This document shows, in pieces, positions 3,642 to 36,943 of a stretch of 64,000 nt of DNA (position 1 is its first letter; every line of letters starts with the position of its first letter). Source of the DNA: an uncultured delta proteobacterium (GTDB taxonomy: Bacteria; Myxococcota_A; UBA9160; UBA4427); contig CAWGJT010000006.1 of assembly GCA_963822965.1 (NCBI GenBank), forward strand, positions 532,982 to 596,981, written 5' to 3'. A program made the position numbers and the translations under genes. The notes under the pieces were generated by a model that saw nothing but the letters and a program-made list of their open reading frames with translations, made no database searches and was not told the DNA's origin.

Positions 3642-4586
3642 TCACGCGCGACGCACGCGAGACACCACCTGCGCCAGCAGGCCGGGATCGACGTTGCCGC
3701 CCGAGAGCACCACGCCGCAGCGGCCCCGTCCCTCGCGCAACGCCAGGGCCAGCGCGGCCGCACCCGAGGGCTCGAGCACCAGGCGCAGCTCGGAAAGCGC
3801 CCACGCCATGGCGTCCAGCATCTCCTCGTCCTCGACCAGCTCGATGCGCGAGACGTGCTTCGCGAGCACGGGCCAGGTGAGCTCCCCGGGCGTTCGAACC
3901 CGCAAGCCGTCCGCGATGGTGCGCGGCGGGGGCACGCTCACGCGTTCGCCCGCGGCGAGGCTCCGCCGCGTGTCGTCGGCGTCCACGGGCTCGACGCCGA
4001 TGATCTCGGCGTGGGGCGACAGGGCCTTCACGGCAACCGCACAGCCCGCCATCAGGCCGCCGCCGCTCACCGGCGCGTAGAAGCGATCGAGCTCGCCCGC
4101 GTCCTCGACGAGCTCGAGGCCGCAGGTCCCCTGCCCGGCCGCCACCCACGGATCGTCGAAGGGCGGCACCGCCACCAGCTCGCGCTCCCGCGCCAGCTCC
4201 CGCGCGCGCTGGGCGCGCTCGTCGCTGTCCGGTCCCACCTCGATCACCTCGGCGCCGTCGGCCAGGGCGCGCGCCCGCTTCGCCGGCGGCGCGTCGTTTG
4301 GCATCACGATGACCGCGTGCATGCCGAGCACGCGGGCCGCCCGGGCGACGGCCTGGGCGTGGTTGCCCGAGGAGTGGGCCACGACGCCGGGGCAATCGCG
4401 CGGCAGGCGCAGCATCTTGGCGAAGGCGCCCCGCAGCTTGAAGGCGCCGGTGGGCTGCAACGACTCGGGCTTGAGCAGGAGGTCGCAGCGCGGGCGCTCC
4501 ACGCGCAGCAGCGGCGTCCGCACCACGTAAGGCCGGATGCGTGCCGCCACGTCGCGGATCGTCTCCAGGGAGAGCCGGTCGATCAA
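3642..4586 (-). CDS. PLP-dependent threonine/serine dehydratase family (catabolic-type, no regulatory domain)
   Basis: SLQPTGAFKLRGA (PLP lysine), HSSGNHAQAVA, GGGGLMAG loop; about 314 aa. TTG start at 4586 overlaps the top6A stop (cTTGAtc), suggesting translational coupling. Confidence 0.7.
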   Translation of the reverse strand: MIDRLSLETIRDVAARIRPYVVRTPLLRVERPRCDLLLKPESLQPTGAFKLRGAFAKMLRLPRDCPGVVAHSSGNHAQAVARAARVLGMHAVIVMPNDAPPAKRARALADGAEVIEVGPDSDERAQRARELARERELVAVPPFDDPWVAAGQGTCGLELVEDAGELDRFYAPVSGGGLMAGCAVAVKALSPHAEIIGVEPVDADDTRRSLAAGERVSVPPPRTIADGLRVRTPGELTWPVLAKHVSRIELVEDEEMLDAMAWALSELRLVLEPSGAAALALALREGRGRCGVVLSGGNVDPGLLAQVVSRVRRA

Positions 4587-5935
4587 GGCAGGAAGGCTCC
4601 CACGTTGCGGAGCTTCGCGGGCAGGTACTCCTCGATCACGTAGTTCAGCCCCCACATCGCCAGGGACTGCTGCTCCGCGCGGACACCCATCTGCAGGAGC
4701 TGCTCGATCGCCTTCCGCCACGGCTTGCTGGCCTGGAAGAAGGGGTCGTTCTTGAGGGCGTCCCGGGCGCGCTTGACGTCGACCTCCTGGAGCGGGTGGG
4801 TCGGCAGCTGGTAGTCGATGATGTCCTGGGGTGTGACGCCGAGATAGCGCGCCTTCGGGACGCAGAAGAACTGGGAGAGATGGGCGGCGTTCCCCGAGCC
4901 CACCTTGAGGGTGCGGTAGATGTTCGAGATGCCGTAGGGATCGCAGTCCACGAAGGCATAGACCGGAATGGCGCAGTCGTCGGAGAGCTTGCGGATGAAC
5001 CGCCGGCACGCGCGCGCCGGCACGCCGGCCATGTTCACCAGGATGCAGTCGCGCGCCTGCCAGAACTTGTGGCTCTGGAGCCGCTGGAAGACGCCGCCCG
5101 TCTCGATCGCCAGGATGAACTTCGCCTTCGTCTCGAAGGAAAGGTGCTCGACGCTGGAGGGAATCGAGTACGCGCCCGACCCGAAGCGCGTGCAGTCGAT
5201 CCGCTCGATGCGTCCGCTGTCGCGGTCCGGGTCGAGCACGACCAGTCTCCCGGCGACGGCGCCGTTGTAGCCCTCGTCGGGGACGAAGCGCAGCTGCTCC
5301 CGCGAGACGCCCCGCAGCGAGAACATGGCCTCGATGTCGTCCATCACCGTGTCCGACTCGGTCTGGTCGTCGAACTTGGCTTCTTCCCAGTTCTTGCTCT
5401 GGTAGTACGCGTCCCGCTTCGTCGCGAAGTCGTTCGCCTCGACGAGATCCTTCGAGAGGCCCATCATGCGCAGGGTCTGGGCGAAGTTGCGCACCGTGTT
5501 GACGGTGAGGGTCCGCTGCTTCTTGTGCTTGCCGATCTCGAAGTACCCGCGCTTCTCCGAATACGAGACGTTCGAGAGCGATCGCACCGGGAACTCGAGG
5601 TCCGGCTTGCGTCCCTTCAGGATGTCCCGGTAGACGTCGTCCGCTCGGTCGTGGATGAGCCGAAGGGTCAGGTCGTCGGCCTTCTTCGTGGCCCGGGAGC
5701 GCTCGCCGGAGAGCCCCGTGCGGCCGCGCGCCGGCTTGCGCGCGGCCTTCTTCGCACGCGGCCCGCCGGCCGCGCCCCGCCGGACGGACTTCTTCGCCGC
5801 GCGGGAGGGCTTCTTCTTCGCGCTCGCCTGGGCCGGGCGGCGCGCCGGCTTCTTCTTCGCGCTCTTCTTGCGGGTCTTGCGGGCTGCCACGTCCTCTCCC
5901 GATCCCCGGATGTCGGACCCACGCAGGTTGTTCAC
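4583..5935 (-). CDS. top6A: DNA topoisomerase VI subunit A (Spo11/Top6A family) with about 95-aa K/R/A-rich N-terminal tail
   Basis: Track ORF (GTG start). Catalytic-tyrosine region FATKRDAYYQSKNW; Toprim E in ILAIETGGVF; DxD metal site FVDCDPYGISN. N-terminus is MNNLRGSDIRGSGEDVAARKTRKKSAKKKPARRPAQASAKKKPSRAAKKSVRRG... Confidence 0.8.
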   Translation of the reverse strand: MNNLRGSDIRGSGEDVAARKTRKKSAKKKPARRPAQASAKKKPSRAAKKSVRRGAAGGPRAKKAARKPARGRTGLSGERSRATKKADDLTLRLIHDRADDVYRDILKGRKPDLEFPVRSLSNVSYSEKRGYFEIGKHKKQRTLTVNTVRNFAQTLRMMGLSKDLVEANDFATKRDAYYQSKNWEEAKFDDQTESDTVMDDIEAMFSLRGVSREQLRFVPDEGYNGAVAGRLVVLDPDRDSGRIERIDCTRFGSGAYSIPSSVEHLSFETKAKFILAIETGGVFQRLQSHKFWQARDCILVNMAGVPARACRRFIRKLSDDCAIPVYAFVDCDPYGISNIYRTLKVGSGNAAHLSQFFCVPKARYLGVTPQDIIDYQLPTHPLQEVDVKRARDALKNDPFFQASKPWRKAIEQLLQMGVRAEQQSLAMWGLNYVIEEYLPAKLRNVGAFLP

Positions 5936-6231
5936 GCCGAAACGCGCTGAGCCCTGCCATCAGCGGGACCTTCCCGAGGGCTCGGCGAGGCCGCTGGTGA
6001 TTCTAGTGGGTGATCCCGGGTCGTAGCGAGCCGCCCCGATGTGCCGAGATTCGAGGGGCATGGCGGTAGGCCCAGCGGCGGTCGAGAGTCTTTGCCGTTG
6101 GTACGCGGCGTGTAGGGACCGGCGAAGCGCTGTCGGACGCCGTTCTCCAGCAGAGCCCCTCGACTGTGAACAACCCCATCAGGCACCACACCCAGCCCAG
6201 GAGCCACCGCGGGGTCGCCTCGGGGGTCGGC

Positions 6232-9200
6232 TCACGAGGCCGAAGCCGCGACCAGAAACAGCGGGCTGCGGCTGGACACCTGGAGCAGCACGGGCAGCAC
6301 CACGAGCACCAGCGGGAGCTGGAAGACCAGACCGGACACGATGGCGATCGCCAGCGGCTGGAGCATGGCCGAGCCCTCGCCGATGCCGAGAGCCAACGGC
6401 GCCAGGGCGAGGATGGCGGCGAAGGTGGTCATCGCGATCGGACGCATGCGATTCGCCCCGGCTCGAATGAAACGCTCCTCGGAAGCCGGTAGCTCCACGT
6501 ATTCCGAATAGTAGAAGATTGCGACTTCGGTCACGATGCCGATGATCATTGTCATGCCCATGCGAGAGGTGATGTTGAACTCGGTGCCGGTCACCCACAA
6601 GCCGAGATACACGCCCGCCACCGCGAGCAACGTCGTCACCAGCATCGCTCCGGCCACGCGGAAGGTCTCGTAGAGGAAGAGGAGCAGAAGAAAGACGAGC
6701 GCAACGGCAATGACGAGTATGATCGTCAGCCCGCGAAAGGCGATCTGCTGCTGCTCGTAGAGCCCACCCAGGGAGAAGGTGACACCATCGGGCAGCAGCC
6801 CGCGTTCGCTGAGCACCGTCTTCACCTCGGCGACGGTGGAGCCGAGGTCGCGACCGGCGATGCGGCCGGTCACGGCGACCATCCGCTTGAGGTCGTCGCG
6901 CGTGATTTCAGGCTGGCCGATGACGGGGGTGAGCGTCGCCACACGCTTGAGTGGAAAGAGGTGACCGTCCGCGGCACGCAGCAACAGGTTGCCGAGATCG
7001 GCCTCCGTCCTTCGATCCGCCTGCGGGATCCAGACGCGCACCCCGATCACCTTCGGTCCGCGCTGGATGCCCGACGTGACGGCACCGCCGAGAAAGTCGC
7101 CGACCGCCTGGGTGATCGCGTCGGGGTCCATCCCCTCGAGGCCCGCCTTGACGCGATTCACCTCGATGTTCAACGCGTCACCGGCCGGGACGATGCCGTC
7201 CTTGACCTCGATCACGCCATCGACCTTCGAGATCGCCTCGGCCACGGCGGGGCCGACCTGCTCCAGGACGGATTCTTCGTTGGAATAGAGCTTGATCTCG
7301 ATCGGCTGCGGGACGCTGGTGAGGTCGCCGATGAGATCCTCCATGAGCTGGGCGGTCTCGATTTGGAGGCCGGGCACCGTCCTCTCGACCCGGGTGCGAA
7401 CGTCTTCCATGATGGTCTCGATCGGCCGGCGGGGAAGCGGCACCAGGCGGACGAAGAAATCCCCGACGTTCGCCTCCGAGATCCCGCCCCCGAGCTGAAG
7501 CCCGGTCCGTCGCGAGTAGGTCTGAACGTCCGGAGTGGCCCGAAGGATGTCCTCGACCCGCCGAAGCAGTCGATCCGTCTCGGAGAGCGAGGTGCCGGGC
7601 GGCGAGAGGTAGTCGAGAATGAAGCCTCCCTCGTCCATCACGGGCATGAATCCGGTGGCCCCGTTGCGGAAGCCGAGCACTCCGCCGCCCACCAGCGGAA
7701 CGAGAAAGAGCAGCACGAGCCACGGGCGGGCGAAGAGCACCCGCATGAGGCGTTCGTAGAGACTCGGGACCGGGCCCGAGAAACGACCGCCTTCCTCCCG
7801 GACGTCCCGTTCGGTCAGGAGGCGCGCCGCGAGGATGGGAACGCCGACGAGCGAAAGGAAGAAGGAGATCACGAGGCTCGACGCCATCGTCAGCGAGAGC
7901 GCCTTGAAGAACGCGCCCGTCACTCCGGAAAGGAAGGCCAGCGGTGTGAAGATGATGATCGTGGCCGACGACGATCCAACCAGGGGCCGCGTGAACTCCG
8001 TCGCCGCCGCCAGCACCCGCTCGCGAATCCCCCCTTCCCCTCCCTCGCGGACGCGGCGGACGATGTGCTCGATCATGACGATGGCATCGTCGATGATGAG
8101 ACCGACCGCCGCCGCCATGCCGCCGAGCGTCATGATGTTGAAGCTCATCCCGAGCACGGAGAGCAGCAGAATGGTCGCAGCCAGCACGGCGGGCACCGTG
8201 AGGATGGCGATGAACGTCACCTTCCAGTCGCGCAGGAAGACGAGCAGCACGAGCGCGGCCAGGGCGATCCCGACGAGCACGGCGTCGCGGGTACTCGAGG
8301 CGGAAGCGATGATCAGGTCGCTCTGGTCGTACCAGTTGGCGACCCGAACGTCCGCGGGAAGCTGCTTCTCGAGCTCGGCGAGCTTCGCCTTGACGCCTTC
8401 CGCGATCTGGACGGTATTCCCTCCGGGCTGCTGGTAGACCTGGAAGAGAACGGCGTCGCGGCCGTCGGCGGTCACGCGAATCCACTGCGGCTGGGTGGAG
8501 CGCTCGACCGCCGCGACGTCGTCGAGCAGGACGACTCCGTATGGCGTCGACCGGAGGACGGTCCGGGAGATCTCCTCGAGGTTCTTGAACCGGGTATCGG
8601 AGATGACGAGGTAGAGCTTGTCGTTCTCTTCGAGCCGGCCTACCGCCGTGAGCACGTTCGAAGCGGAGAGCGCCTTGGCCACGTCGGCGAGCGTGAGGCC
8701 GAAGGATTGGAGCTTGGCCACGTCGGCCACGACGCGGAATTCCTCGACGCGGCCCCCCTGCACGCCGATGCGGGAGACGCCGGTCACGGTCGTCAGCGCC
8801 GGTCGCAGGGTGTAGAGGGCGAGATCGCGCAGCTCGGTGAGCGGTCGCGCGTTCGAGGTGAGGCTGTAGGCGATCACCGGAAACACGGTGGGATCCATGC
8901 GCTCGGCGTCGAACGAGGTGCCCGGCGGCAACGCCGGTATCACCTTGTTCACCTCCGACTCGGCCTGGAGCAGGGCGCTCGTCATGTCCTGGCCCCAGTC
9001 GAAGTTCACGGAGATCTGCGCGCTGCCCCGGCTCGTCGTGGAGCGCACGCCGCGCACGCCGGGGATGGCGCGGACGGCTTCTTCGATGGGTGTCGTCACC
9101 TCGACGACCATGCGCTCGGCCGGCCGGTCGCCGGCCTCGAGATCGATGCGGACGCGCGGGAAGCTGACCTGCGGAAAGAGGCTCACCGGGAGCTGGCAGC

Positions 9201-9285
9201 TGCTCATCGCCCCGGCCGCTGCGAGCACGGCGAAGAGGAAGAGGAGCGAGCGGGAGTGGCGGTGCGTCCAATCGGAGAAGTTCAT
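6232..9285 (-). CDS. RND efflux transporter permease (HAE1/HME, CzcA/CusA/AcrB-like), about 1017 aa
   Basis: Begins MNFSDWTHRHSRSLLFLFAVLAAAGA at ATG 9285 within track ORF 6232..12018; 12-TM RND topology with two large periplasmic loops; ends ...LFLVAASAS. Confidence 0.85.
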   Translation of the reverse strand: MNFSDWTHRHSRSLLFLFAVLAAAGAMSSCQLPVSLFPQVSFPRVRIDLEAGDRPAERMVVEVTTPIEEAVRAIPGVRGVRSTTSRGSAQISVNFDWGQDMTSALLQAESEVNKVIPALPPGTSFDAERMDPTVFPVIAYSLTSNARPLTELRDLALYTLRPALTTVTGVSRIGVQGGRVEEFRVVADVAKLQSFGLTLADVAKALSASNVLTAVGRLEENDKLYLVISDTRFKNLEEISRTVLRSTPYGVVLLDDVAAVERSTQPQWIRVTADGRDAVLFQVYQQPGGNTVQIAEGVKAKLAELEKQLPADVRVANWYDQSDLIIASASSTRDAVLVGIALAALVLLVFLRDWKVTFIAILTVPAVLAATILLLSVLGMSFNIMTLGGMAAAVGLIIDDAIVMIEHIVRRVREGGEGGIRERVLAAATEFTRPLVGSSSATIIIFTPLAFLSGVTGAFFKALSLTMASSLVISFFLSLVGVPILAARLLTERDVREEGGRFSGPVPSLYERLMRVLFARPWLVLLFLVPLVGGGVLGFRNGATGFMPVMDEGGFILDYLSPPGTSLSETDRLLRRVEDILRATPDVQTYSRRTGLQLGGGISEANVGDFFVRLVPLPRRPIETIMEDVRTRVERTVPGLQIETAQLMEDLIGDLTSVPQPIEIKLYSNEESVLEQVGPAVAEAISKVDGVIEVKDGIVPAGDALNIEVNRVKAGLEGMDPDAITQAVGDFLGGAVTSGIQRGPKVIGVRVWIPQADRRTEADLGNLLLRAADGHLFPLKRVATLTPVIGQPEITRDDLKRMVAVTGRIAGRDLGSTVAEVKTVLSERGLLPDGVTFSLGGLYEQQQIAFRGLTIILVIAVALVFLLLLFLYETFRVAGAMLVTTLLAVAGVYLGLWVTGTEFNITSRMGMTMIIGIVTEVAIFYYSEYVELPASEERFIRAGANRMRPIAMTTFAAILALAPLALGIGEGSAMLQPLAIAIVSGLVFQLPLVLVVLPVLLQVSSRSPLFLVAASAS

Positions 9286-10359
9286 CGCGAGGTGGTCCAC
9301 GGCCATGCCGTCCTCGAGCTCGGCGTTCCCCACCGTGACGACGAGATCGCCAGGCTCGAGGGCGTCGCCAAGGACCTCGGCTTCTCCGTCGGACACCACG
9401 CCGAGCCGGACCCGGTGGGCGACAGCCCGACCGTCGCGAACGGTGAACAGCTGCCACGCGTCGTCCTTCGGGAGGACGCTGGAGCGCGGAACCACGAGAG
9501 CGTCCTTCGATTCACGGGCGATGCTCGCCCGCAGGTATCCGTCGAGCATCAGGCCGCTGTCGGGCGGCAGGGACACATAGACGTCCACCAGGCGGGTCGC
9601 AGGATTGATGCGGCGAGTCACGAGGCGCACCGTTCCACCGATCTCGCGGCTGGCCGGCTGGTTGACCGGAAGCAGGGCGACGCTCTGCCCGACCGAGACC
9701 GCGACGAGATCCTCCGGCTCGACGCCGATCTTCGCTTCGATCTCGTCGGTCGCGATGATCTCGACGAGCGCGGCCCCGCCCGCGACGAGCTGGCCGTCCT
9801 GCACCGCCACGTTGGCGACGATTCCCTCGGAGGGCGCGCGGAGGAGGCCCGCCGTATCGGCGCCTTCGCGTTCCAGGCTCGCGAGCTGCAGCGCGGCCTG
9901 GGTGGCCGCCCTCTCGGCGGAGTTGAGATCCTGATTGGTGGCGAGCTTCAGGTCGAACCGCTCCTGGGTCTGCTTCAGCTCCTTCCGAGCGAGGTCCGCC
10001 GCGCTGCGCGCCTGGTTGACCTGCAGCTGCGTGGAAGGACTGGCGGCGATCGCGAGCAGGGGGTCGCCCTTCTCGACCGGCTGACCGGGAGCGACGAGGA
10101 CGTGGCTCACCCGTGCCTCGTAGGCGACCGAGGTCGTCTGGAGCTTCCCCGGTTGGGCGATGACGCTGCCGTAGGCGGTGACGGTCTCCGCGATCGTCTT
10201 GCGGCCCACCTTCACCGCCTCGACGAACGCGGTGGTCGCGTTCGATTCCGAGCCCGAGCCCGCGGGCGGCTCGGGCTCGGAGCACGCCGACCACCAGCCT
10301 ACCGCGAGGACGACGCTGGCAATCGGGACCGCGAGGACAAGGATTCGGCGCGGGCTCAT
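9286..10359 (-). CDS. efflux RND periplasmic adaptor (membrane fusion protein, HlyD/AcrA family); no in-frame stop before the RND ATG
   Basis: MSPRRILVLAVPIASVVLAVGWWSACS lipobox/signal; coiled-coil and beta-barrel MFP signature; ends ...VVTVGNAELEDGMAVDHLA and reads straight into MNFSDW. ATG at 10359 overlaps the OMF stop (ATGA). Confidence 0.7.
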
Positions 10360-11747
10360 GAGTCGTGGATCTGCGGCAGATAGCGTCCGGAGGCGATCTC
10401 CAGGGCCACCCACGCTTCGATCAGCTGCTGCTCGAGCTTGAGCAGCTCGACCTGGCGAAGGACGAGGTTGTAGCGAGTCTGGTAGTAGCTGATCACGTCC
10501 GTGTTTCCCTCGTCGAGGGCTGACTTCGCCGTCGTCACCAGTCGCTCGAGAGTCGGCACGGCTCTCGCCGCCTCGGCCACCTGGCGGTCGATCAGCCGGA
10601 TGTCGGACAGCGCAGTCGCGATGTCGGAGTGAGCTCGAAAGACGCGGTCGGCGTATTCGTCGAAGAGCTTCTGGCGCGTCGCACGCTCGCTGGCGATCGT
10701 GCCTTGATTCCGATCGAAGAGGGGGAGGTCCAGGGTGACGCCGAAACCGACGGTCTGCACGTCGGACGTGTCCCCTGCGCGGTTGAAGCCGATGGAAATC
10801 CTCGGGAACTGGGCGAGGATGGCCGCGCGCAGGTTGGCGTCCTCGCTCTCGTAGCCGGCCTTCAACGCGAGAAGATCGAGACGGTGGGTCTCCACTCCGG
10901 TCGTCAACTCGGACTCGGACGGTGGTTCGAGCCGGGTCGGCAATCGGGGGGTCTCGATGCGGGCGGGCGTATCCGAGGGGAATCCCATCGCCCGATTCAG
11001 CGCGAGACGCTCCCGCGCCAGGTCCTGCTCGAGACCCAGGGCCGTCAGCCTCGCATCCTCGCTGGTGGACTCCGCCGCCGACAGATCGAGAACCGTCTTC
11101 TCGTGCCGCTCTACCGCCTCTTGGAGCGTGGCCACGTTCTCGCGCAACGCCCGGTCGGCCTCGTCCGCGGCAGCGAGCTGCGCTTCGAGCGACGCGACCT
11201 TGTAGACGGCGGTACGGGCTGCCTGCGCGGTCAGCCACTCCACCCACGCCACGTCGAGATCCACGGAACGGACGTTGGCGCGGGCGGCTTCGCCCCTCGT
11301 CGACAGCGTGACGAGCGACGTCACGTCCCAGCTCGCCCCGAAGCCGAACGCCGTGACGGTGCCGGCCGTATTGCCCCCGACGACGTAGTCTCGACCGTAG
11401 GAGATCTGCGGGTTCGGCAGCACGCCCGCCTGGACGAGCTGCGCGGTCGCCAGTCCCCGCCGGTTGCGATCCGCCCGCAGCGTCGGATTGAGCAGTACGG
11501 CCAGCACCGCGGCCTCGTCTGGATTCACTCCGTCGCTGAGGTCGATCTCCATTGGACGGAGGATCGGATGCTCGATCTGCGAAGCGGCGACCCGCAGCAC
11601 CGCGACCTCGGGAACCCGGAGACTCTCCTCGACTGCCGCCTCGGTGAGCGGTTTCGGATGGTAGATCGAGCAACCCGAAGACACGAGGAGGCAGCTTGCG
11701 GCCAGCCGGAGCGGGAATCGTGGAATTCGAGCCATTCTCGGGACCAT
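10356..11747 (-). CDS. efflux outer membrane factor lipoprotein (TolC/NodT family)
   Basis: Track ORF 10356..11846; MVPRMARIPRFPLRLAASCLLVSSGCS lipoprotein signal; two repeated TolC-like halves; start 11747 (or 11735). Confidence 0.75.
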   Translation of the reverse strand: MVPRMARIPRFPLRLAASCLLVSSGCSIYHPKPLTEAAVEESLRVPEVAVLRVAASQIEHPILRPMEIDLSDGVNPDEAAVLAVLLNPTLRADRNRRGLATAQLVQAGVLPNPQISYGRDYVVGGNTAGTVTAFGFGASWDVTSLVTLSTRGEAARANVRSVDLDVAWVEWLTAQAARTAVYKVASLEAQLAAADEADRALRENVATLQEAVERHEKTVLDLSAAESTSEDARLTALGLEQDLARERLALNRAMGFPSDTPARIETPRLPTRLEPPSESELTTGVETHRLDLLALKAGYESEDANLRAAILAQFPRISIGFNRAGDTSDVQTVGFGVTLDLPLFDRNQGTIASERATRQKLFDEYADRVFRAHSDIATALSDIRLIDRQVAEAARAVPTLERLVTTAKSALDEGNTDVISYYQTRYNLVLRQVELLKLEQQLIEAWVALEIASGRYLPQIHDS

Positions 11748-11846
11748 GAGGTCTGCCCAGGCTATGCAACGCCTCCCGCCGCGGCAAGCAGACGACGCGG
11801 CGATCGGGAATACTCCGCTCGGCGCCCTGCGCGGTCGGCCAAACAC

Positions 11847-12032
11847 CCCAATGCCTGACGAATCGCTGCGTCTTGCTCGGTCCGTGCCGCGATCCGAGCC
11901 CGACGCCAGGACCTCGTGGGAATGAGATTGTCGCGCTCAGGCTGGTTCCGCCGTTCTCGCGCGATCCGCGAGGGCTGGCACGCTCTGCTGCACGCGGGAA
12001 GCACACGGAAGGACGCATCGGGGCTAGAGGCC
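11847..12032 (+). repeat. dispersed ~187-bp intergenic repeat, copy 1 (about 91% identical to 35706-35892)
   Basis: Direct alignment of cccaatgcctgacgaatcgctgcgtcttgctcggtccgtgccgcgatccgagcccgacgccaggacctcgtgggaatgagattgtcgcgctcaggctggttccgcc... with the second locus; about 17 mismatches and 1 indel over 187 bp. Confidence 0.8.
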
Positions 12033-12188
12033 CGGCCGGAAAGTGCGACCTGCATTCGAGCGCCCCCGCGGCGCCCTGGCTGCGTTCCGCTCCCGTCGCC
12101 GTAGCTTCGGCTACGCCTCGGTCGCGCGCCTTGCCAGGACGCCGCGGATGACGCTCTCGGTGCCGCGGTACACTTTCCGGCCGGGCCT

Positions 12189-14042
12189 CTAGAGCCTACG
12201 GCTCTTCTCGAGCACGTCGGTCAGGTTCTTCACGATACGATTCCGCTGCTTCTCGTCGAGCCCCAGGATGTGCTCGAGGCCGACGGCCACCTGCGGGATG
12301 TACTTCTCGATGTAGGCGCGCTTCTTGGCCTCGTCGGCAGCCCGGCGCCCCTTGCGGATGTGGGTGGCGACCCGCCGGCCGCATTCCTGCAGACCGAGCC
12401 GCAGCTCCTTGATGATTTCGGGATAGTGGGCGATCGCCTCCTTGCTTTCGGACGTGAACGGCACCCACACGCTCGCGATGTGCACCATCACCAGGGCCGG
12501 ACCCACGGGCAGCGCGCCCCGGGGCTGCTGGAGCTGGTAGGCGCGCCAGTCGGTCTGGACCACCGCCCGCGTGATCGCGCAGGCGCCCTGCTGGTACTGC
12601 AGGGGCACGCGGTTCGCGAAGCGGTAGAGGGTGATGGACTGCTCGGCGCCCATGTCGCCGCCGTAGGCGAGACCCACCTCGACGAGAAAGGGGTTGCCGC
12701 GATAGACGGCCGGCCGGCGGGTCACCGCAGCGTAGAAGTCCGCCTTCACCTCGGCCCGCAGGGCCCGCAGGATCAGGTCCTCGCCGATGGGCGCGATGCA
12801 GTCCGCGGGCGGGTTCATGATCTTCGTCTTCTGGATCGCCCGGTGGATGCGTTCGGCCTCGTTGCGGGTCACGTCCCGCGGCCGCCGCTTCGACGACACC
12901 TCGGCGCGCGCGCAGATCTCCTCGGCGGTGCGCGCCGAAACCCGCGCGAAGTCGCCCTGGAGACAGGTCCTCACGTTGCGGGCCTTGGTGTCGCGCAGCA
13001 TCTGCATCAGGACGCCGAGCTCCACACCGTAGGGATGGGGCTTGATCTCCGCCGTGAGGGGCGGCAGCTCCTTGGCGACGCGCGGAAACTCGATGGTGGG
13101 CTCCGAAGCGGCCGAGTCGCCGCCTCCTCCCGGCGCGGCTCCCTCCGCCGCCGGAGGCGCAACCGGCGGGACGTAGGTGATCTTCGCATGGGGGTTGGCG
13201 AGGGAGATCTGTCGAACGTAGGAGTCGACCGAGTGCTGCCCGCCGCGGTAGTTGCCTTCGAGCTCGATCTCCACCCGCGTGCCGTGGTCGACCGGCCAGG
13301 CCACGACCTTCTCGACCGACACCCGCGGCTCGTTCTTCTGGGTATCGATCACCAGCTCGAAGTGGTGGGCGTCCTTCCGCTTGCCGGTCCGGGTCAGGAT
13401 CTTGACGGGACGACCGGTCGTGATCAGCCCGTACATGCCCGCCGCGCTGATCCCGATGCCCTGCTGGCCCCGGCTCTGCCGCAGACGGTGGAACTTCGAG
13501 CCATAGAGGAGACGGCCGAAGATCTTCGGCACCTGGCCCCGCACGATGCCGGGACCGTTGTCCTCGATGGCGACGCGGAAGCGGGACTCGCCCTGCTGGG
13601 TGATCTCGACCCGGATGTCCGGCAGGATGCCCGCCTCCTCACAGGCGTCGAGGGAGTTGTCGACTCCCTCCTTGACGGTGGTGAGCAGGGCCTTCGAGGG
13701 ATTGTCGAACCCCAGCAGGTGCCGGTTCTTGGCGAAGAACTCGGAGACCGAGATGTCGCGCTGCTTGCGGCCCTGCTCGACCGCATCGGCGTGATGTACG
13801 GGCTTCGGCGCGCGACGAACCGCGGTGGCCTGGCGCGCGCCTTTTCGCTTCGCGGGCTTGCGGGTCGGCGGTCGCCTGCCGCCTGCCTGCCGCTTCGCCG
13901 GTTCCCGGGCCGGCTTCGCCTTCGCCTTCTTCTTCTTCTTCTTCTTCGACCTCTTCGGAGCTCTCGCCTTCGCGGCGGGCGCCCTGCGTTTGCGCCTCGT
14001 AGGCTCGCGCTTTTCGGGCTTTCGCGCGGAACGGGCCGCCAT
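12189..14042 (-). CDS. top6B: DNA topoisomerase VI subunit B (GHKL ATPase) with about 95-aa K/R-rich N-terminal tail
   Basis: Bergerat-fold motifs: N-box [10 protein letters not shown]1 DNGPGI, G2 GQQGIGISA; transducer domain follows. Start ATG at 14040-14042, preceded by GGGGGAGAGG RBS. Tail is [52 protein letters not shown]... Confidence 0.8.
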
Positions 14043-14299
14043 CGTCCTCTCCCCCCGAGAGCAGCCCCCGATCATGCCCGATCGATCCCGGGCGTTCCAG
14101 CGAAGATCCTCGCGATCGAGTCCCGCGAACCGCGTGGCGATCGGCGCGGGACCGCGGACGGAACCCGCCTGCGCGGCGCCACCGATCCCTTGGGGGGGCG
14201 AGCTCCGCCCCTCGCGACCCGTGCCGAAAAGGAGCATGCTCTCGGGTCCCCGCTCGGAATAGAGGATCACACGACCCGAATCGCTCGAGGAGACTCGCT

Positions 14300-34680: not shown

Positions 34681-35673
34681 ATGCCGGGCCGGCTGGTGGC
34701 CGTCTTCGCGCCCCTGGCACTCGTCGCCCTGCCCCGCTTCTACGGTCACGCCTTCAACAACTCGAAGGACATCCCCTTCGCGTGTGCGTTCGTCTGGGCC
34801 GTTCACGCAAGCTGTCGGCTGGCGTGTCGCGAGGCGGGCTCGCGCCTGGGCCCGGCGCTGCTCTGCGGGCTCGCCGTCGGCGCCGCCCTGGCCATCCGGC
34901 CGGGCGGTCTCCCGTTGCTGCTCGGGCTCTTCGGCCTGCTGCTGGCCTGGCGCCTGGGGGTGCGAGACGGCGGCGCCCGCGGCGCCTGGCGGGGGGTGCT
35001 GCAGGACGCCCTCGTGGCCTGGGCCGCGGCCTGGCTCGTGATGGTGGCCCTGTGGCCCTGGGCGCACGAGAGCCCCGTGCTGAACCCGCTGCGCGCCGTG
35101 GCCCTGCTGGCGGGCCTCGCGGCAGCTTCGCTCGTCGAGGTGCTGGCGACGCTCGCGCAGCGGCACGCGGGGCCGCGCCCGGCTGCCCGGGTGCGCGTCG
35201 CAACGGTCTGCGCGATGGGCCTGACCCTGGCCACGGCCTTCGTCCAGCACGTCCGCCTGCACCCGTACCAGAGCACCTACTTCAACGCGCTGGTGGACGG
35301 CGTGGCCGGGGCGGACGGCCGCTACGAGACCGACCACTGGCTGTCCAGCTACAAGGAAGCCATCGAATGGGTCAACGCCCGCACCGCCGGCGCCGGCCGC
35401 GAGGTGACGGTGCTGGTGGCCGCCGATCCCTACTCGAGCGACTGCGCGGCGAGCTTCCTCGGCCCCGGCGTCTGCATGGTCCGAACCGTCGAGCAGGGGG
35501 TGGGCGGGGCCCTGCCCGAGCCCTTCGATTTCTACGTCGCCACCACGCGCTACGGGCTGGACGCGAACTTCCCGGGGTCCGAGGTCGCCCATCGGGTCGG
35601 GCGGCTGGGAGCCACCTTCACGGTGATCCGCGCGCGGGAAGGCGGGGCAGAACGCAGTCTCGCGGGGCGCTAG
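34681..35673 (+). CDS. membrane protein resembling the C-terminal two-thirds of GT39/ArnT/PMT-family glycosyltransferases (N-terminal catalytic part not found)
   Basis: ...HPYQSTYFNALVDGVAGADGRYETDHWLSSYKEAIEWVNARTAGAGREVTVLVAADPYSS...; typical GT39 C-terminal periplasmic domain preceded by TM helices. Confidence 0.45.
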   Translation: MPGRLVAVFAPLALVALPRFYGHAFNNSKDIPFACAFVWAVHASCRLACREAGSRLGPALLCGLAVGAALAIRPGGLPLLLGLFGLLLAWRLGVRDGGARGAWRGVLQDALVAWAAAWLVMVALWPWAHESPVLNPLRAVALLAGLAAASLVEVLATLAQRHAGPRPAARVRVATVCAMGLTLATAFVQHVRLHPYQSTYFNALVDGVAGADGRYETDHWLSSYKEAIEWVNARTAGAGREVTVLVAADPYSSDCAASFLGPGVCMVRTVEQGVGGALPEPFDFYVATTRYGLDANFPGSEVAHRVGRLGATFTVIRAREGGAERSLAGR

Positions 35674-35705
35674 TCCTGATCCGTCATGCGGATCAGGGCG
35701 CAACT

Positions 35706-35892
35706 CCCAATGCCTGCCGAATCGCTGCCTCTTGCTCGGTCCGTGCCGCGATCCGAGCCCGACGCCAGGACCTCATGGGAATGAGGTTGTCGCGCTCAGG
35801 CTGGTTCCGCCGTCCTCGCACGATCCGCGAGGCCTGGCAGGGGCTGCGGCACGCAGGAAGCACGCTGAATGACGCATTGGGGCTAGCAGGCC
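35706..35892 (+). repeat. dispersed ~187-bp intergenic repeat, copy 2 (about 91% identical to 11847-12032)
   Basis: See copy 1; lies between the GT39-like gene and prs, same orientation as copy 1. Confidence 0.8.
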
Positions 35893-35950
35893 GACCCCCG
35901 ATGGGTCGGCTCGTGCCGGCGGGGGCCCGCCGTTGCTATCCTTGCGCGCG

Positions 35951-36943
35951 ATGCCCACGCCCATCGCACCCCTGTGCCTCCTGACCTGCGAATCGGGCCG
36001 CCCGTTCGCGACCGCCGTGGCCGAAGAGCTGGGCCAGCCGCTGGTTCCCACGAGCGAGTCCTGGTTCGCCTGCGGCGAGGGCAAGCTCGTCATCGACGCG
36101 AACATCCGCGGCTGCGACGCCTACGTGTTCCAGTCCTGCATCGGCGATCACGACGACCTCTCGGTCTACGAGCGCTTCGTGATGCTGCTGCACGCCGTCG
36201 AGGCGGCGAAGCTGTCCGACGCGCTGTTCGTGACCGCCGTCCTGCCCTACTACCCCGGCGCGAGGCAGGACAAGCGCAAGGGACGCACCCGAGAAGGCAT
36301 CAGCGCGGGCCTGTTCGCGCGCATGCTCTCCGTGGCGGGCGCCCACCGGGTGCTGACGGTCGAGATCCACAACGACGCCATCGCCGGCATGTTCGACGCG
36401 AGCCAGACCACCCTCGAGACGGTCTACCTCACCAAGCACATGGTGGGCTGGATGAACGAGCACGGCATCAGCGCGGGCGTCGTGGTGGCGCCGGACGTGG
36501 GCGGGATGGAGCGCGCGCGCTGGTACGCGGAGAAGCTGTCGGCGGACCTCGCCGCGCTCTCCAAGGAACGGGACTACTCGCGCCCGAACGCCGTCGTCCG
36601 CTCCACCCTGATCGGCGAGGTCGCCAATCGAGACGTCCTGCTGGTGGACGACATCGTCGACACCGCGGGCTCCGTGGTGGCCGCCATCGACGAGCTGAAG
36701 TCGCACGGTGCCCGGAACATCACCGTCGCCTGCGCACACCCCCTGCTCTCGGGGCCCGCCTGGGACCGGCTCTCGGCGCTCTACGATCGCGCCACCGGCG
36801 AGGGCTGGGACTTCAAGCTCGTCGGCACATCCTCGGTGCTCCACCAGAAGGTGCCGGGATGGTATCTCCACTATCCCATCGAGCCCCTGATGGCGCAGGT
36901 GATCACGAAGATCAACCGGCGAGGCAGCGTGACCGGCCTCTGA
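35951..36943 (+). CDS. prs: ribose-phosphate pyrophosphokinase (PRPP synthetase) family
   Basis: PYYPGARQDKR, VLTVEIHND, PRPP-binding motif VLLVDDIVDTAGSV. Confidence 0.8.
   Translation: MPTPIAPLCLLTCESGRPFATAVAEELGQPLVPTSESWFACGEGKLVIDANIRGCDAYVFQSCIGDHDDLSVYERFVMLLHAVEAAKLSDALFVTAVLPYYPGARQDKRKGRTREGISAGLFARMLSVAGAHRVLTVEIHNDAIAGMFDASQTTLETVYLTKHMVGWMNEHGISAGVVVAPDVGGMERARWYAEKLSADLAALSKERDYSRPNAVVRSTLIGEVANRDVLLVDDIVDTAGSVVAAIDELKSHGARNITVACAHPLLSGPAWDRLSALYDRATGEGWDFKLVGTSSVLHQKVPGWYLHYPIEPLMAQVITKINRRGSVTGL

What the first reader, a model, noticed from the sequence alone, without database searches (positions are those of the whole stretch)
11847..12032. Novel dispersed ~187-bp intergenic repeat family (two copies, about 91% identical)
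Copy 1 (11847-12032) lies between top6B and the efflux OMF gene. Copy 2 (35706-35892) lies between a GT39-like gene and prs, about 24 kb away. Both are in the same absolute orientation, but the orientation relative to flanking genes differs: antisense to minus-strand neighbours at locus 1, sense and 5' of prs at locus 2. That argues against a gene-specific leader and for a mobile or REP/MITE-like element, or an independently transcribed small RNA. Copy 1 flanks the RND operon that splits top6B/top6A.
Basis: seen in the sequence. Interest (0 to 1): 0.6.

Follow-up and report, generated by a model that had tools for sequence, protein, structure and literature searches.

The report
CTAG-targeting miniature transposon (MITE) copies
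The two ~185-bp repeats are copies, one intact and one missing its left end, of a previously undescribed small non-coding mobile element that inserts at the rare sequence CTAG, usually a gene's TAG stop codon; it is a new family of an ordinary, well-known kind.

Summary
The repeat is real: window 11847-12027 and 35706-35886 are 91% identical (165/181), their flanks are unrelated, and the window has no third copy.

It is part of a larger unit. Copy 2 is an intact 217-nt element (35670-35886):
- CTAG at both ends;
- a 14-nt imperfect terminal inverted repeat (17 pairs counting CTAG);
- a 25-nt hairpin at the left end;
- a conserved central hairpin.

Copy 1 lacks the left 36-38 nt. A second MITE sits in its flanking CTAG.

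Related elements occur in unrelated contexts in three metagenome contigs. At least 18 left ends, all in one related Myxococcota MAG (OFTM107), fall into two further subfamilies plus internal-deletion derivatives that keep both ends. Orthologous sites in relatives are empty.

The flanking CTAG often supplies the TAG stop of the neighbouring gene. CTAG occurs only 9 times in the window against 173 expected.

There is no Rfam hit, promoter, terminator or coding signal, and only weak conserved internal structure.

Verdict: a new MITE family, most like the CTAG-duplicating MITEPsy1 of the IS5 family. The mobilising transposase was not found. The exact 216-nt length shared by subfamilies only about 50% identical is unexplained. 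Interest is low to moderate.

The parts
35670..35673 (+). Left flanking CTAG of the intact element (target / duplication). Its TAG (35671-35673) is the stop codon of the upstream 463-aa ORF.
   Evidence: a 527-codon open frame with GC3 0.93 ends here.
35674..35698 (+). Left terminal inverted repeat (TCCTGATCCGTCAT) followed by its own inverted copy. Together they form a 10-bp-stem hairpin: TCCTGATCCG-TCATG-CGGATCAGGG.
   Evidence: The same end is present in L006-L008 and in 18 OFTM107 matches.
35699..35705 (+). 7-nt spacer CGCAACT between the left hairpin and the core.
35706..35882 (+). Core of copy 2, the part shared with copy 1. It includes the invariant 28-mer TTGCTCGGTCCGTGCCGCGATCCGAGCC and the right terminal repeat ATGACGCATTGGGG (35869-35882).
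35769..35788 (+). Conserved central hairpin GACCTCAT-GGGA-ATGAGGTT. The stem is kept and the loop varies in all three subfamilies.
   Evidence: helix 8 has 100% of cells paired.
35883..35886 (+). Right flanking CTAG of copy 2.
11847..12023 (+). Copy 1: the core plus the right terminal repeat, lacking the left CTAG, hairpin and spacer (a truncated, presumably immobile copy). Its central hairpin is at 11910-11929.
   Evidence: There is no significant remnant of the left end upstream.
12024..12027 (+). CTAG shared by the right end of copy 1 and the left end of the second MITE.
12028..12188 (.). Second, unrelated MITE (161 nt) with 18-nt perfect terminal inverted repeats AGGCCCGGCCGGAAAGTG (12028-12045 / 12171-12188), inserted in the CTAG next to copy 1.
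   Evidence: 2 matches against 0.08 expected; it folds as a long hairpin spanning 12023-12193.
12189..12192 (-). CTAG whose complement supplies the TAG stop codon of top6B (12189-12191, minus strand). This is the original target site. The orthologous CTAG in OFTM107 is unoccupied.
35887..35912 (+). Short hairpin CAGGCCGACCC-CCGAT-GGGTCGGC immediately after copy 2. Its AGGCCGACCC start matches a second CTAG-bounded small-element family in OFTM107.

Best explanation
The two repeats are copies of a non-autonomous DNA transposon, a MITE. The full unit is 216-217 nt counting both flanking CTAGs. It has no coding capacity. Its ends are a 14-nt imperfect inverted repeat (left CCCTGATCCGTCAT, right in reverse complement CCCCAAT(G/C)CGTCAT).

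Proposed mechanism: a transposase encoded elsewhere in the genome binds the two ends, moves the unit, and integrates it at the palindromic tetranucleotide CTAG, duplicating CTAG or its central TA. In these roughly 70% G+C Myxococcota genomes CTAG is almost confined to TAG stop codons. Insertions therefore accumulate immediately 3' of genes, and the duplication regenerates the stop codon, so they are tolerated.

Copy 2 (35670-35886) is intact and sits on the stop codon of the gene upstream of prs. Copy 1 (11847-12027) sits at the top6B stop codon, has lost its left 36-38 nt, and later received a second MITE in its flanking CTAG.

Shown here: the anatomy, the multi-copy dispersed distribution, the deletion derivatives, the empty orthologous sites and the CTAG/stop-codon association. 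Inferred: transposition by a DDE transposase of IS5 or IS630 type, the size of the duplication (2 or 4 bp), and the absence of any host function.
For: - Sharp-edged 91% repeat with unrelated flanks.
- Full elements in w2, L006 and L007 are bounded by CTAG...CTAG and sit in different contexts.
- The left-end pattern CTAGYCCTGATCCGTCANNCGG has 18 exact matches in 596 Gb of species-representative genomes, all in one MAG, OFTM107. About 2 chance matches are expected, by my estimate.
- OFTM107 is a relative: its Top6B is 83% identical and the locus is syntenic.
- Its copies form two more subfamilies of exactly 216 nt. Internal-deletion derivatives of 35-92 nt keep both ends. There are also a solo hairpin and tandem arrangements sharing a CTAG.
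- The consensus fold pairs the two ends over 17 positions.
- Similarity between copies ends at the CTAGs.
- The orthologous prs-upstream sites in relatives L003, L004, L005 and L009 lack the element.
- The OFTM107 top6B stop is an unoccupied gtCTAGgATG.
- A flanking CTAG provides the TAG stop of a long ORF at 10 or more insertion sites, in either orientation.
- CTAG occurs 9 times in the window against 173 expected: 5 are gene stops, 2 are inner element borders and 2 are intergenic.
- Precedent: MITEPsy1 duplicates CTAG and derives from ISPsy2 (PMC3189936). IS5 makes CTAG target duplications (PMC10379815).
- Not coding. No Rfam family.
Against: - No transposase with matching ends was found in the window or in 17 x 8 kb of OFTM107. 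Only part of either was examined.
- A true target-site duplication is not proven. CTAG could be part of the element's ends, and no filled/empty pair from the same species is available.
- The terminal repeats are imperfect, with the same two mismatches in every copy.
- The best-conserved segment is internal (a 28-mer invariant in W-type copies) rather than terminal.
- Exact length conservation (216 nt) between subfamilies only about 50% identical is not expected for a purely selfish interior.
- The copy number in the source genome itself could not be measured. The genome is not searchable here: exact look-ups of its own Prs returned nothing.
Confidence: 0.78

Rival explanations
1. REP/REPIN- or BIME-like element mobilised by a single-strand HUH (Y1) transposase of the RAYT / IS200-IS605 type. 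The 25-nt hairpin preceded by a conserved tetranucleotide would be the recognised unit. The 216-nt element would be a composite that moves as single-stranded DNA and inserts next to CTAG without a true duplication.
For: - The left end is a tetranucleotide plus a 25-nt near-perfect palindrome, as in REPs (from my own knowledge, E. coli REPs carry a 5' GTAG). Solo hairpins bounded by CTAG exist in L021, L014 and L015.
- Several different small palindromic families cluster at the same sites: MITE2 and family 2.
- In the predicted + strand helices G.U pair types outnumber A.C types 16 to 3, and the two fixed end mismatches are G.T on the + strand. This hints at a strand-specific folded form.
Against: - CTAG is present identically on both sides, and a 14-nt inverted repeat at the two ends fits a DDE transposase better.
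- The right end has no hairpin of its own.
- The G.U excess is biased, because the structure was predicted on the + strand. MFE does not differ between strands.
- No Y1 transposase gene was seen, but hardly any sequence was examined.
Confidence: 0.12
2. A family of independently transcribed small RNAs, or a structured RNA carried as cargo by the element, whose fold is the selected feature.
For: - The central hairpin has a stem kept through one-sided and two-sided changes and a variable loop.
- One long-range 7-bp helix shows two compensatory changes between subfamilies: CGUGCCG/CGGCACG against CGCGCGG/CCGCGCG.
- 93.6% of cells pair, against 33-44% for slid controls.
- Length is invariant at 216 nt despite about 50% divergence.
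Against: - No Rfam match at gathering score or at E<=10.
- No sigma-70-like promoter or intrinsic terminator.
- Folding energy is no better than shuffles: z = +0.18 and -1.11.
- A structure derived from one subfamily is only 51-61% paired in the others, against 30-46% for slid controls.
- Deletion derivatives that retain only the ends are propagated.
- Orientation relative to neighbouring genes is random.
Confidence: 0.07
3. A gene-specific cis-regulatory leader or terminator, or a remnant of a segmental duplication.
For: Copy 2 lies 5' of prs in the sense orientation. The copies sit directly after stop codons, where a terminator would be.
Against: - The flanks are unrelated.
- The neighbouring genes are unrelated and the element occurs in either orientation.
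- Relatives lack the element upstream of prs and between top6B and top6A.
- There is no U-tract terminator.
Confidence: 0.03

Closest known systems
MITEPsy1 of Pseudomonas syringae (derived from ISPsy2, whose IS5-family membership I state from my own knowledge), and IS5 itself
   Same: A short non-coding element with terminal inverted repeats. [quoted passage not shown] IS5 gives CTAG target duplications (PMC10379815).
   Different: There is no sequence similarity. The MITEPsy1 repeat GGAAGGTCTGAAAAAGCC is unlike CCCTGATCCGTCAT. This element is 216 nt rather than 100 nt, and it has an extra hairpin at the left end and a conserved central hairpin. No parent IS has been identified, so IS5-family derivation is unproven.
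IS630/Tc1-mariner-derived bacterial MITEs (for example RUP and Nezha) and IS630, which prefers CTAG and duplicates TA (my own knowledge, not tested here)
   Same: The target is palindromic and TA-centred. If the duplication is TA, the element would start with G and end with C, which it does. The elements are small, intergenic and multi-copy.
   Different: A 2-bp duplication cannot be told from a 4-bp one with the present data. No IS630-type transposase was found.
Correia elements (CREE/NEMIS) of Neisseria (my own knowledge)
   Same: They are 100-160-bp intergenic inverted-repeat elements with TA duplication. They lie close to genes and can be co-transcribed and folded into hairpins.
   Different: The sequence and lineage are unrelated. 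Correia elements have 26-bp repeats and known promoter and IHF sites, none of which was shown here.
REP / REPIN / BIME elements mobilised by RAYT transposases (my own knowledge)
   Same: A conserved tetranucleotide plus a roughly 25-nt extragenic palindrome. There are solo and composite forms. Different palindromic units cluster just after genes.
   Different: This element has inverted terminal repeats with the same tetranucleotide on both sides and a 216-nt unit. No RAYT gene was identified.

Membership tests
MITE (miniature inverted-repeat transposable element) | Short (under about 500 bp) and without coding capacity | tested here: met
   The element is 216-217 nt. G+C is flat across codon positions (0.60-0.75, against GC3 above 0.9 in real genes). 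There are stops and a frameshift between copies.
MITE (miniature inverted-repeat transposable element) | Terminal inverted repeats | tested here: met
   The left end CCCTGATCCGTCAT matches the right end (reverse complement) CCCCAATCCGTCAT at 12/14 in subfamily B and CCCCAATGCGTCAT at 11/14 in W and A. L008 has a perfect 13-nt pair. The ends pair at 17 positions including CTAG.
MITE (miniature inverted-repeat transposable element) | Target-site duplication flanking each copy | tested here: inconclusive
   All nine other full-length copies have CTAG on both sides; L016 has CTAG on its left only, its right end having decayed to CCAGG. A flanking CTAG is the neighbouring gene's TAG stop at 10 or more sites. 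The orthologous top6B stop in OFTM107 is a single unoccupied CTAG. No same-species filled/empty pair is available, so CTAG as part of the ends, and 2 bp against 4 bp, cannot be settled.
MITE (miniature inverted-repeat transposable element) | Multiple dispersed copies in unrelated genomic contexts, with presence/absence differences between relatives | tested here: met
   There are 2 copies in the window, 3 metagenome loci, and 18 left ends on 15 contigs of one MAG. The element is absent at orthologous sites in L003, L004, L005, L009, L027, L028 and L029.
MITE (miniature inverted-repeat transposable element) | An autonomous IS with the same terminal repeats that supplies the transposase | tested here: inconclusive
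   No IS-length repeat occurs among the 17 OFTM107 loci. No transposase domain appears in the window ORFs examined.
IS5-family-derived MITE (MITEPsy1-like) | Terminal repeats matching an IS5-family member, and a 4-bp CTAG/YTAR duplication | not testable with these tools
   The target preference matches. No IS reference library or whole-genome access was available. The repeats do not resemble the published MITEPsy1 or ISPsy2 ends.
REP/REPIN (RAYT-mobilised) | A 20-40-nt palindromic unit with a conserved 5' tetranucleotide, present in many copies | tested here: inconclusive
   CTAG plus the 25-nt hairpin occurs alone (L021, L014, L015b) and as the left end of full elements. Genome-wide copy number is unknown.
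REP/REPIN (RAYT-mobilised) | A cognate RAYT (Y1 transposase) gene flanked by the repeats | not testable with these tools
   This needs a scan of complete genomes. None was seen in the small amount of sequence held.
Known RNA families (Rfam 15), including 6S RNA, which I considered because of the size and the paired ends | A covariance-model match at or near the gathering score | tested here: not met
   There were no hits at gathering score in the window or in 9 loci. At E<=10 only chance matches to unrelated families appeared.
Independently transcribed sRNA gene | A conserved promoter and terminator, and a conserved secondary structure with covariation | tested here: not met
   No promoter-like or terminator-like sites were found. 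MFE z-scores are +0.18 and -1.11. Only one hairpin and one helix are conserved across subfamilies, and cross-validated pairing is 51-61% against 30-46%. Transcription itself is not testable here.

The most novel reading that the evidence does not exclude
The interior of the element is not junk. It would be a selected, folded single-stranded nucleic acid, either RNA or transposition-intermediate DNA, carried by a mobile element. This is suggested by four observations: the exact 216-nt length in three subfamilies that share only about 50-59% of internal positions; a central hairpin whose stem is kept while its loop changes; a long-range helix with two compensatory changes; and end mismatches that are G.T only on one strand. 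Such a core could be a guide or regulatory RNA for its own transposase. Alternatively it could be a portable 3'-end module, such as an mRNA stabiliser or terminator, delivered precisely to stop codons.
Probability: 0.12. Interest if true: 0.6.

Novelty: new member of a known kind. Interest (0 to 1): 0.3.

Why it matters
For annotation, these repeats should be masked as mobile elements rather than called as sRNA genes or leaders. They also explain assembly breaks: two same-species short-read contigs end exactly at the element.

Biologically, the element is a clear example of target choice making a transposon nearly harmless. CTAG is about 20-fold depleted in this window (9 found against 173 expected), and five of its nine CTAGs are TAG stop codons. 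The element therefore lands just after genes and restores the stop codon.

The family marks recent genome change in an uncultured Myxococcota lineage. One copy now separates a conserved upstream motif from prs. The other lies at the junction where an RND efflux operon has been placed between top6B and top6A, which are adjacent in relatives.

The strict length conservation and the conserved hairpin could repay study if the mobilising enzyme is found.

Tried and rejected
- **6S RNA or another known RNA.** I considered this because of the roughly 185-nt size and the paired ends. Rfam gave nothing at gathering score and nothing at E<=10 beyond chance matches to unrelated families.
- **Small protein-coding gene.** Two frames are open in most copies. 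However, G+C shows no codon periodicity, W-type copies differ by a frameshift, and some copies carry stops.
- **Collecting copies through spurious ORF calls.** A profile of the translated element searched against 5.8 billion proteins scored no hit.
- **Exact look-up of the source genome.** Its own Prs (identical to P0121, on a 968,608-nt NCBI/ENA contig) returns nothing, so the copy number in the source genome is unknown.
- **First genome-collection scan.** The invariant 23-mer core gave 0 hits.
- **Other collections.** Plasmids in distant mode gave no match for either MITE. Viral contigs gave no match for either end.
- **Search for a parent IS or transposase.** No IS-length repeats occur among the OFTM107 loci. 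No transposase domains appear in the window ORFs examined, including the low-G+C stretch at 46-50 kb.
- **A degenerate left end upstream of copy 1 or at CTAG 6003.** Alignment scores are no better than shuffles.
- **Strand of a putative RNA.** MFE is equal on both strands, and the consensus energy only slightly favours the + strand.
- **A globally conserved fold.** Cross-validation between subfamilies is weak.

Full report
**Observation**

The two stretches exist as described. Window 11847-12027 and 35706-35886 align without gaps at 165/181 identical positions (91%), and similarity ends abruptly on both sides. The repeat finder reports the pair as by far the longest repeat in the window: 191 nt at 90%, spacing 23,859. 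The next families are 45 nt or less at 67-76%. A profile HMM of the family finds no third copy in the 64 kb.

- Copy 1 lies between an outer-membrane efflux gene (PF02321; the ORF runs to 11846, with a likely lipoprotein start near 11735) and top6B (12189-14270, minus strand).
- Copy 2 lies between a 463-aa ORF ending at 35673 and prs, which starts at 35951.

**The unit is larger than 187 bp**

A metagenome scan with the invariant core returned three contigs. In L006 and L007 the element is complete and has unrelated flanks. In L006, L007, L008 and window copy 2 the similarity extends 36 nt further left.

The full unit, 216-217 nt counting both CTAGs, reads: CTAG | CCCTGATCCG-TCATG-CGGATCAGGG | CGCAACT | CCCAATGCC ... 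ATGACGCATTGGGG | CTAG. The left end CCCTGATCCGTCAT and the reverse complement of the right end, CCCCAAT(G/C)CGTCAT, form an imperfect terminal inverted repeat (TIR). L008 is a 110-nt derivative with a perfect 13-nt pair.

Copy 2 (35670-35886) is intact. Copy 1 lacks the left CTAG, hairpin and spacer, and no significant remnant lies upstream.

Directly after copy 1's right CTAG (12024) lies a second, unrelated 161-nt element. It has 18-nt perfect inverted repeats (12028-12045 / 12171-12188) and ends at another CTAG (12189). The complement of that CTAG is the TAG stop of top6B.

**A dispersed, multi-copy family**

The left-end pattern CTAGYCCTGATCCGTCANNCGG has 18 exact matches in the 596-Gb species-representative genome collection. 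All are on 15 contigs of one genome, 'MAG: Deltaproteobacteria bacterium isolate OFTM107' (JAJDAN01).

That MAG is a relative of the window's organism. Its Top6B is 83% identical, its top6 locus is syntenic, and other close homologues are labelled Myxococcota.

The OFTM107 copies lie in unrelated contexts and comprise the following:
- two further subfamilies (A and B) of exactly 216 nt;
- internal-deletion derivatives of 35, 50, 75 and 92 nt that keep both ends;
- a solo CTAG-hairpin-CTAG;
- 5' fragments;
- a tandem pair sharing one CTAG.

Similarity between copies stops at the CTAGs, and no IS-length repeat accompanies them.

**Insertion polymorphism**

- Relatives with Prs 85-94% identical (L003, L004, L005, L009) have only 48-230 nt upstream of prs and no element. 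The window sequence minus the element aligns with them.
- Two short-read contigs of the same species (95.5% DNA identity) begin at, or 22 nt inside, the right end of an element at the same CTAG. This is what an assembler does at a repeat. The 22 nt differ from the window's copy.
- At the other locus, OFTM107 and two JGI contigs have top6B and top6A adjacent, 1-18 nt apart. The OFTM107 top6B stop reads gtCTAGgATG, an unoccupied CTAG.

**Target**

- CTAG occurs only 9 times in the window, against 173 expected from base composition.
- Five of the nine are TAG stops of long ORFs with GC3 above 0.9. Two are the inner borders of the elements. Two are intergenic. None is inside a gene.
- Across all loci a flanking CTAG supplies the stop codon of a long open frame at 10 or more insertion sites. 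Sometimes this is on the element's left and sometimes on its right.
- The elements therefore sit exactly on stop codons, in either orientation, and the duplicated CTAG preserves the stop.

**What it is not**

- Rfam 15 gives no match at gathering score in the window or in nine loci. At E<=10 there are only chance hits to unrelated families.
- There is no sigma-70-like promoter or intrinsic terminator.
- The MFE is not lower than that of shuffles: z = +0.18 and -1.11.
- Two reading frames are open in most copies. However, G+C is flat over codon positions, W-type copies differ by one base in length, and some copies have stops.
- No plasmid or viral-contig match was found.

**Structure**

The consensus fold pairs the two ends over 17 positions. 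It also shows:
- a central hairpin (CUCAY-N4-RUGAG, at 35769-35788 in copy 2) that is paired in every copy while its loop changes;
- a 7-bp long-range helix with two compensatory changes between subfamilies.

However, MFE is equal on both strands. A structure derived from one subfamily is only 51-61% paired in the others, against 30-46% for slid controls. A globally conserved RNA fold is therefore not supported.

One point remains unexplained. All three subfamilies keep a length of exactly 216 nt although only about 50-59% of internal positions are shared.

**Interpretation**

The anatomy, distribution, deletion derivatives, empty sites and palindromic target together fit a MITE mobilised in trans. 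The closest documented analogue is MITEPsy1 of Pseudomonas syringae: 100 nt, 18-nt inverted repeats, inserting at CTAG or YTAA with duplication, and derived from ISPsy2 (PMC3189936). IS5 itself is reported to duplicate CTAG (PMC10379815). From my own knowledge, IS630 also prefers CTAG and duplicates TA.

The terminal sequences here resemble neither published end, and no partner transposase was found. The family is therefore new, but the kind is known. A RAYT/REPIN-like single-strand mechanism is the main rival (about 0.12). A small-RNA reading is unlikely (about 0.07).

**Side observations**

- In the window the 217-nt element separates a motif conserved upstream of prs in all relatives (GCAGAACGCAGTCTCGC) from the conserved GTTGCTAT near the start codon.
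- The truncated side of copy 1 faces an OMF-MFP-RND operon. Only in the window genome does this operon lie between top6B and top6A.

Noticed in passing
window 12024-12192: A second, unrelated MITE: 161 nt with 18-nt perfect terminal inverted repeats AGGCCCGGCCGGAAAGTG, bounded by CTAG on both sides. The right CTAG is the TAG stop of top6B. It was inserted into the CTAG flanking copy 1.
   Followed up: partly
window, whole (CTAG at 6003, 12024, 12189, 16366, 32794, 35670, 35883, 46476, 53476): CTAG is about 20-fold depleted: 9 found against 173 expected. Five are TAG stops of high-GC3 genes, two are inner element borders, two are intergenic, and none is inside a coding region. In OFTM107 locus L029 most CTAGs also coincide with gene ends.
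   Followed up: yes
window 4583-14270 (minus strand); L027, L028, L029: In this genome an OMF-MFP-RND efflux operon (about 6232-11735), plus the two MITEs, lies between top6B and top6A (4583-5935). In OFTM107 and two JGI contigs top6B and top6A are adjacent (1-18 nt apart) within the same EF-G ... PALP synteny. The truncated end of copy 1 faces the inserted operon.
   Followed up: partly
window 35650-35668 and 35932-35940; L003, L004, L005, L009: A motif GCAGAACGCAGTCTCGC, and GTTGCTAT about 10-12 nt before the prs start codon, are conserved upstream of prs in all relatives, whatever gene lies upstream. In the window the 217-nt element now separates them. This may be a promoter or operator of prs.
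   Followed up: no
L001 1-60, L002 1-80: Two short-read contigs of the same species (95.5% identical; Prs differs by 1 aa) end at the element's right CTAG. L002's 22 nt inside the element (..GCGCTCATGAATAATCCGGG) differ from the window copy, and the hairpin after the CTAG is about 35 nt longer. A different family member may occupy the same CTAG.
   Followed up: partly
L019 1689-1795, L020 5145-5199, L016 about 6750-6840; window 35887-35912: A further family of small CTAG-bounded elements begins (G/C)AGGCCGACCC and ends GCCAG-CTAG. It is often directly adjacent to the 216-nt element. The hairpin just after window copy 2 starts with the same 10-mer.
   Followed up: partly
alignment A5 (window 35670-35886, L006, L007, L010, L011, L015, L018, L019, L020, L026): All full-length copies are 216 nt (the window's is 217), although subfamilies share only about 50-59% of internal positions. 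The two ends differ at the same two positions in every copy, giving G.T wobbles if the + strand folds.
   Followed up: partly
L008 2-113: A 110-nt derivative consisting of the first roughly 90 nt of the element followed by a perfect inverted copy of the left end (TGTGACGGATCAGGG-CTAG). Its right CTAG is the stop codon of an open frame of at least 389 codons.
   Followed up: partly
window 6232-12018 (minus strand): A 1928-aa 'ORF' listed mechanically here is an artefact of the high G+C. It runs in one frame through the RND and MFP genes and on across the OMF region and copy 1.
   Followed up: partly
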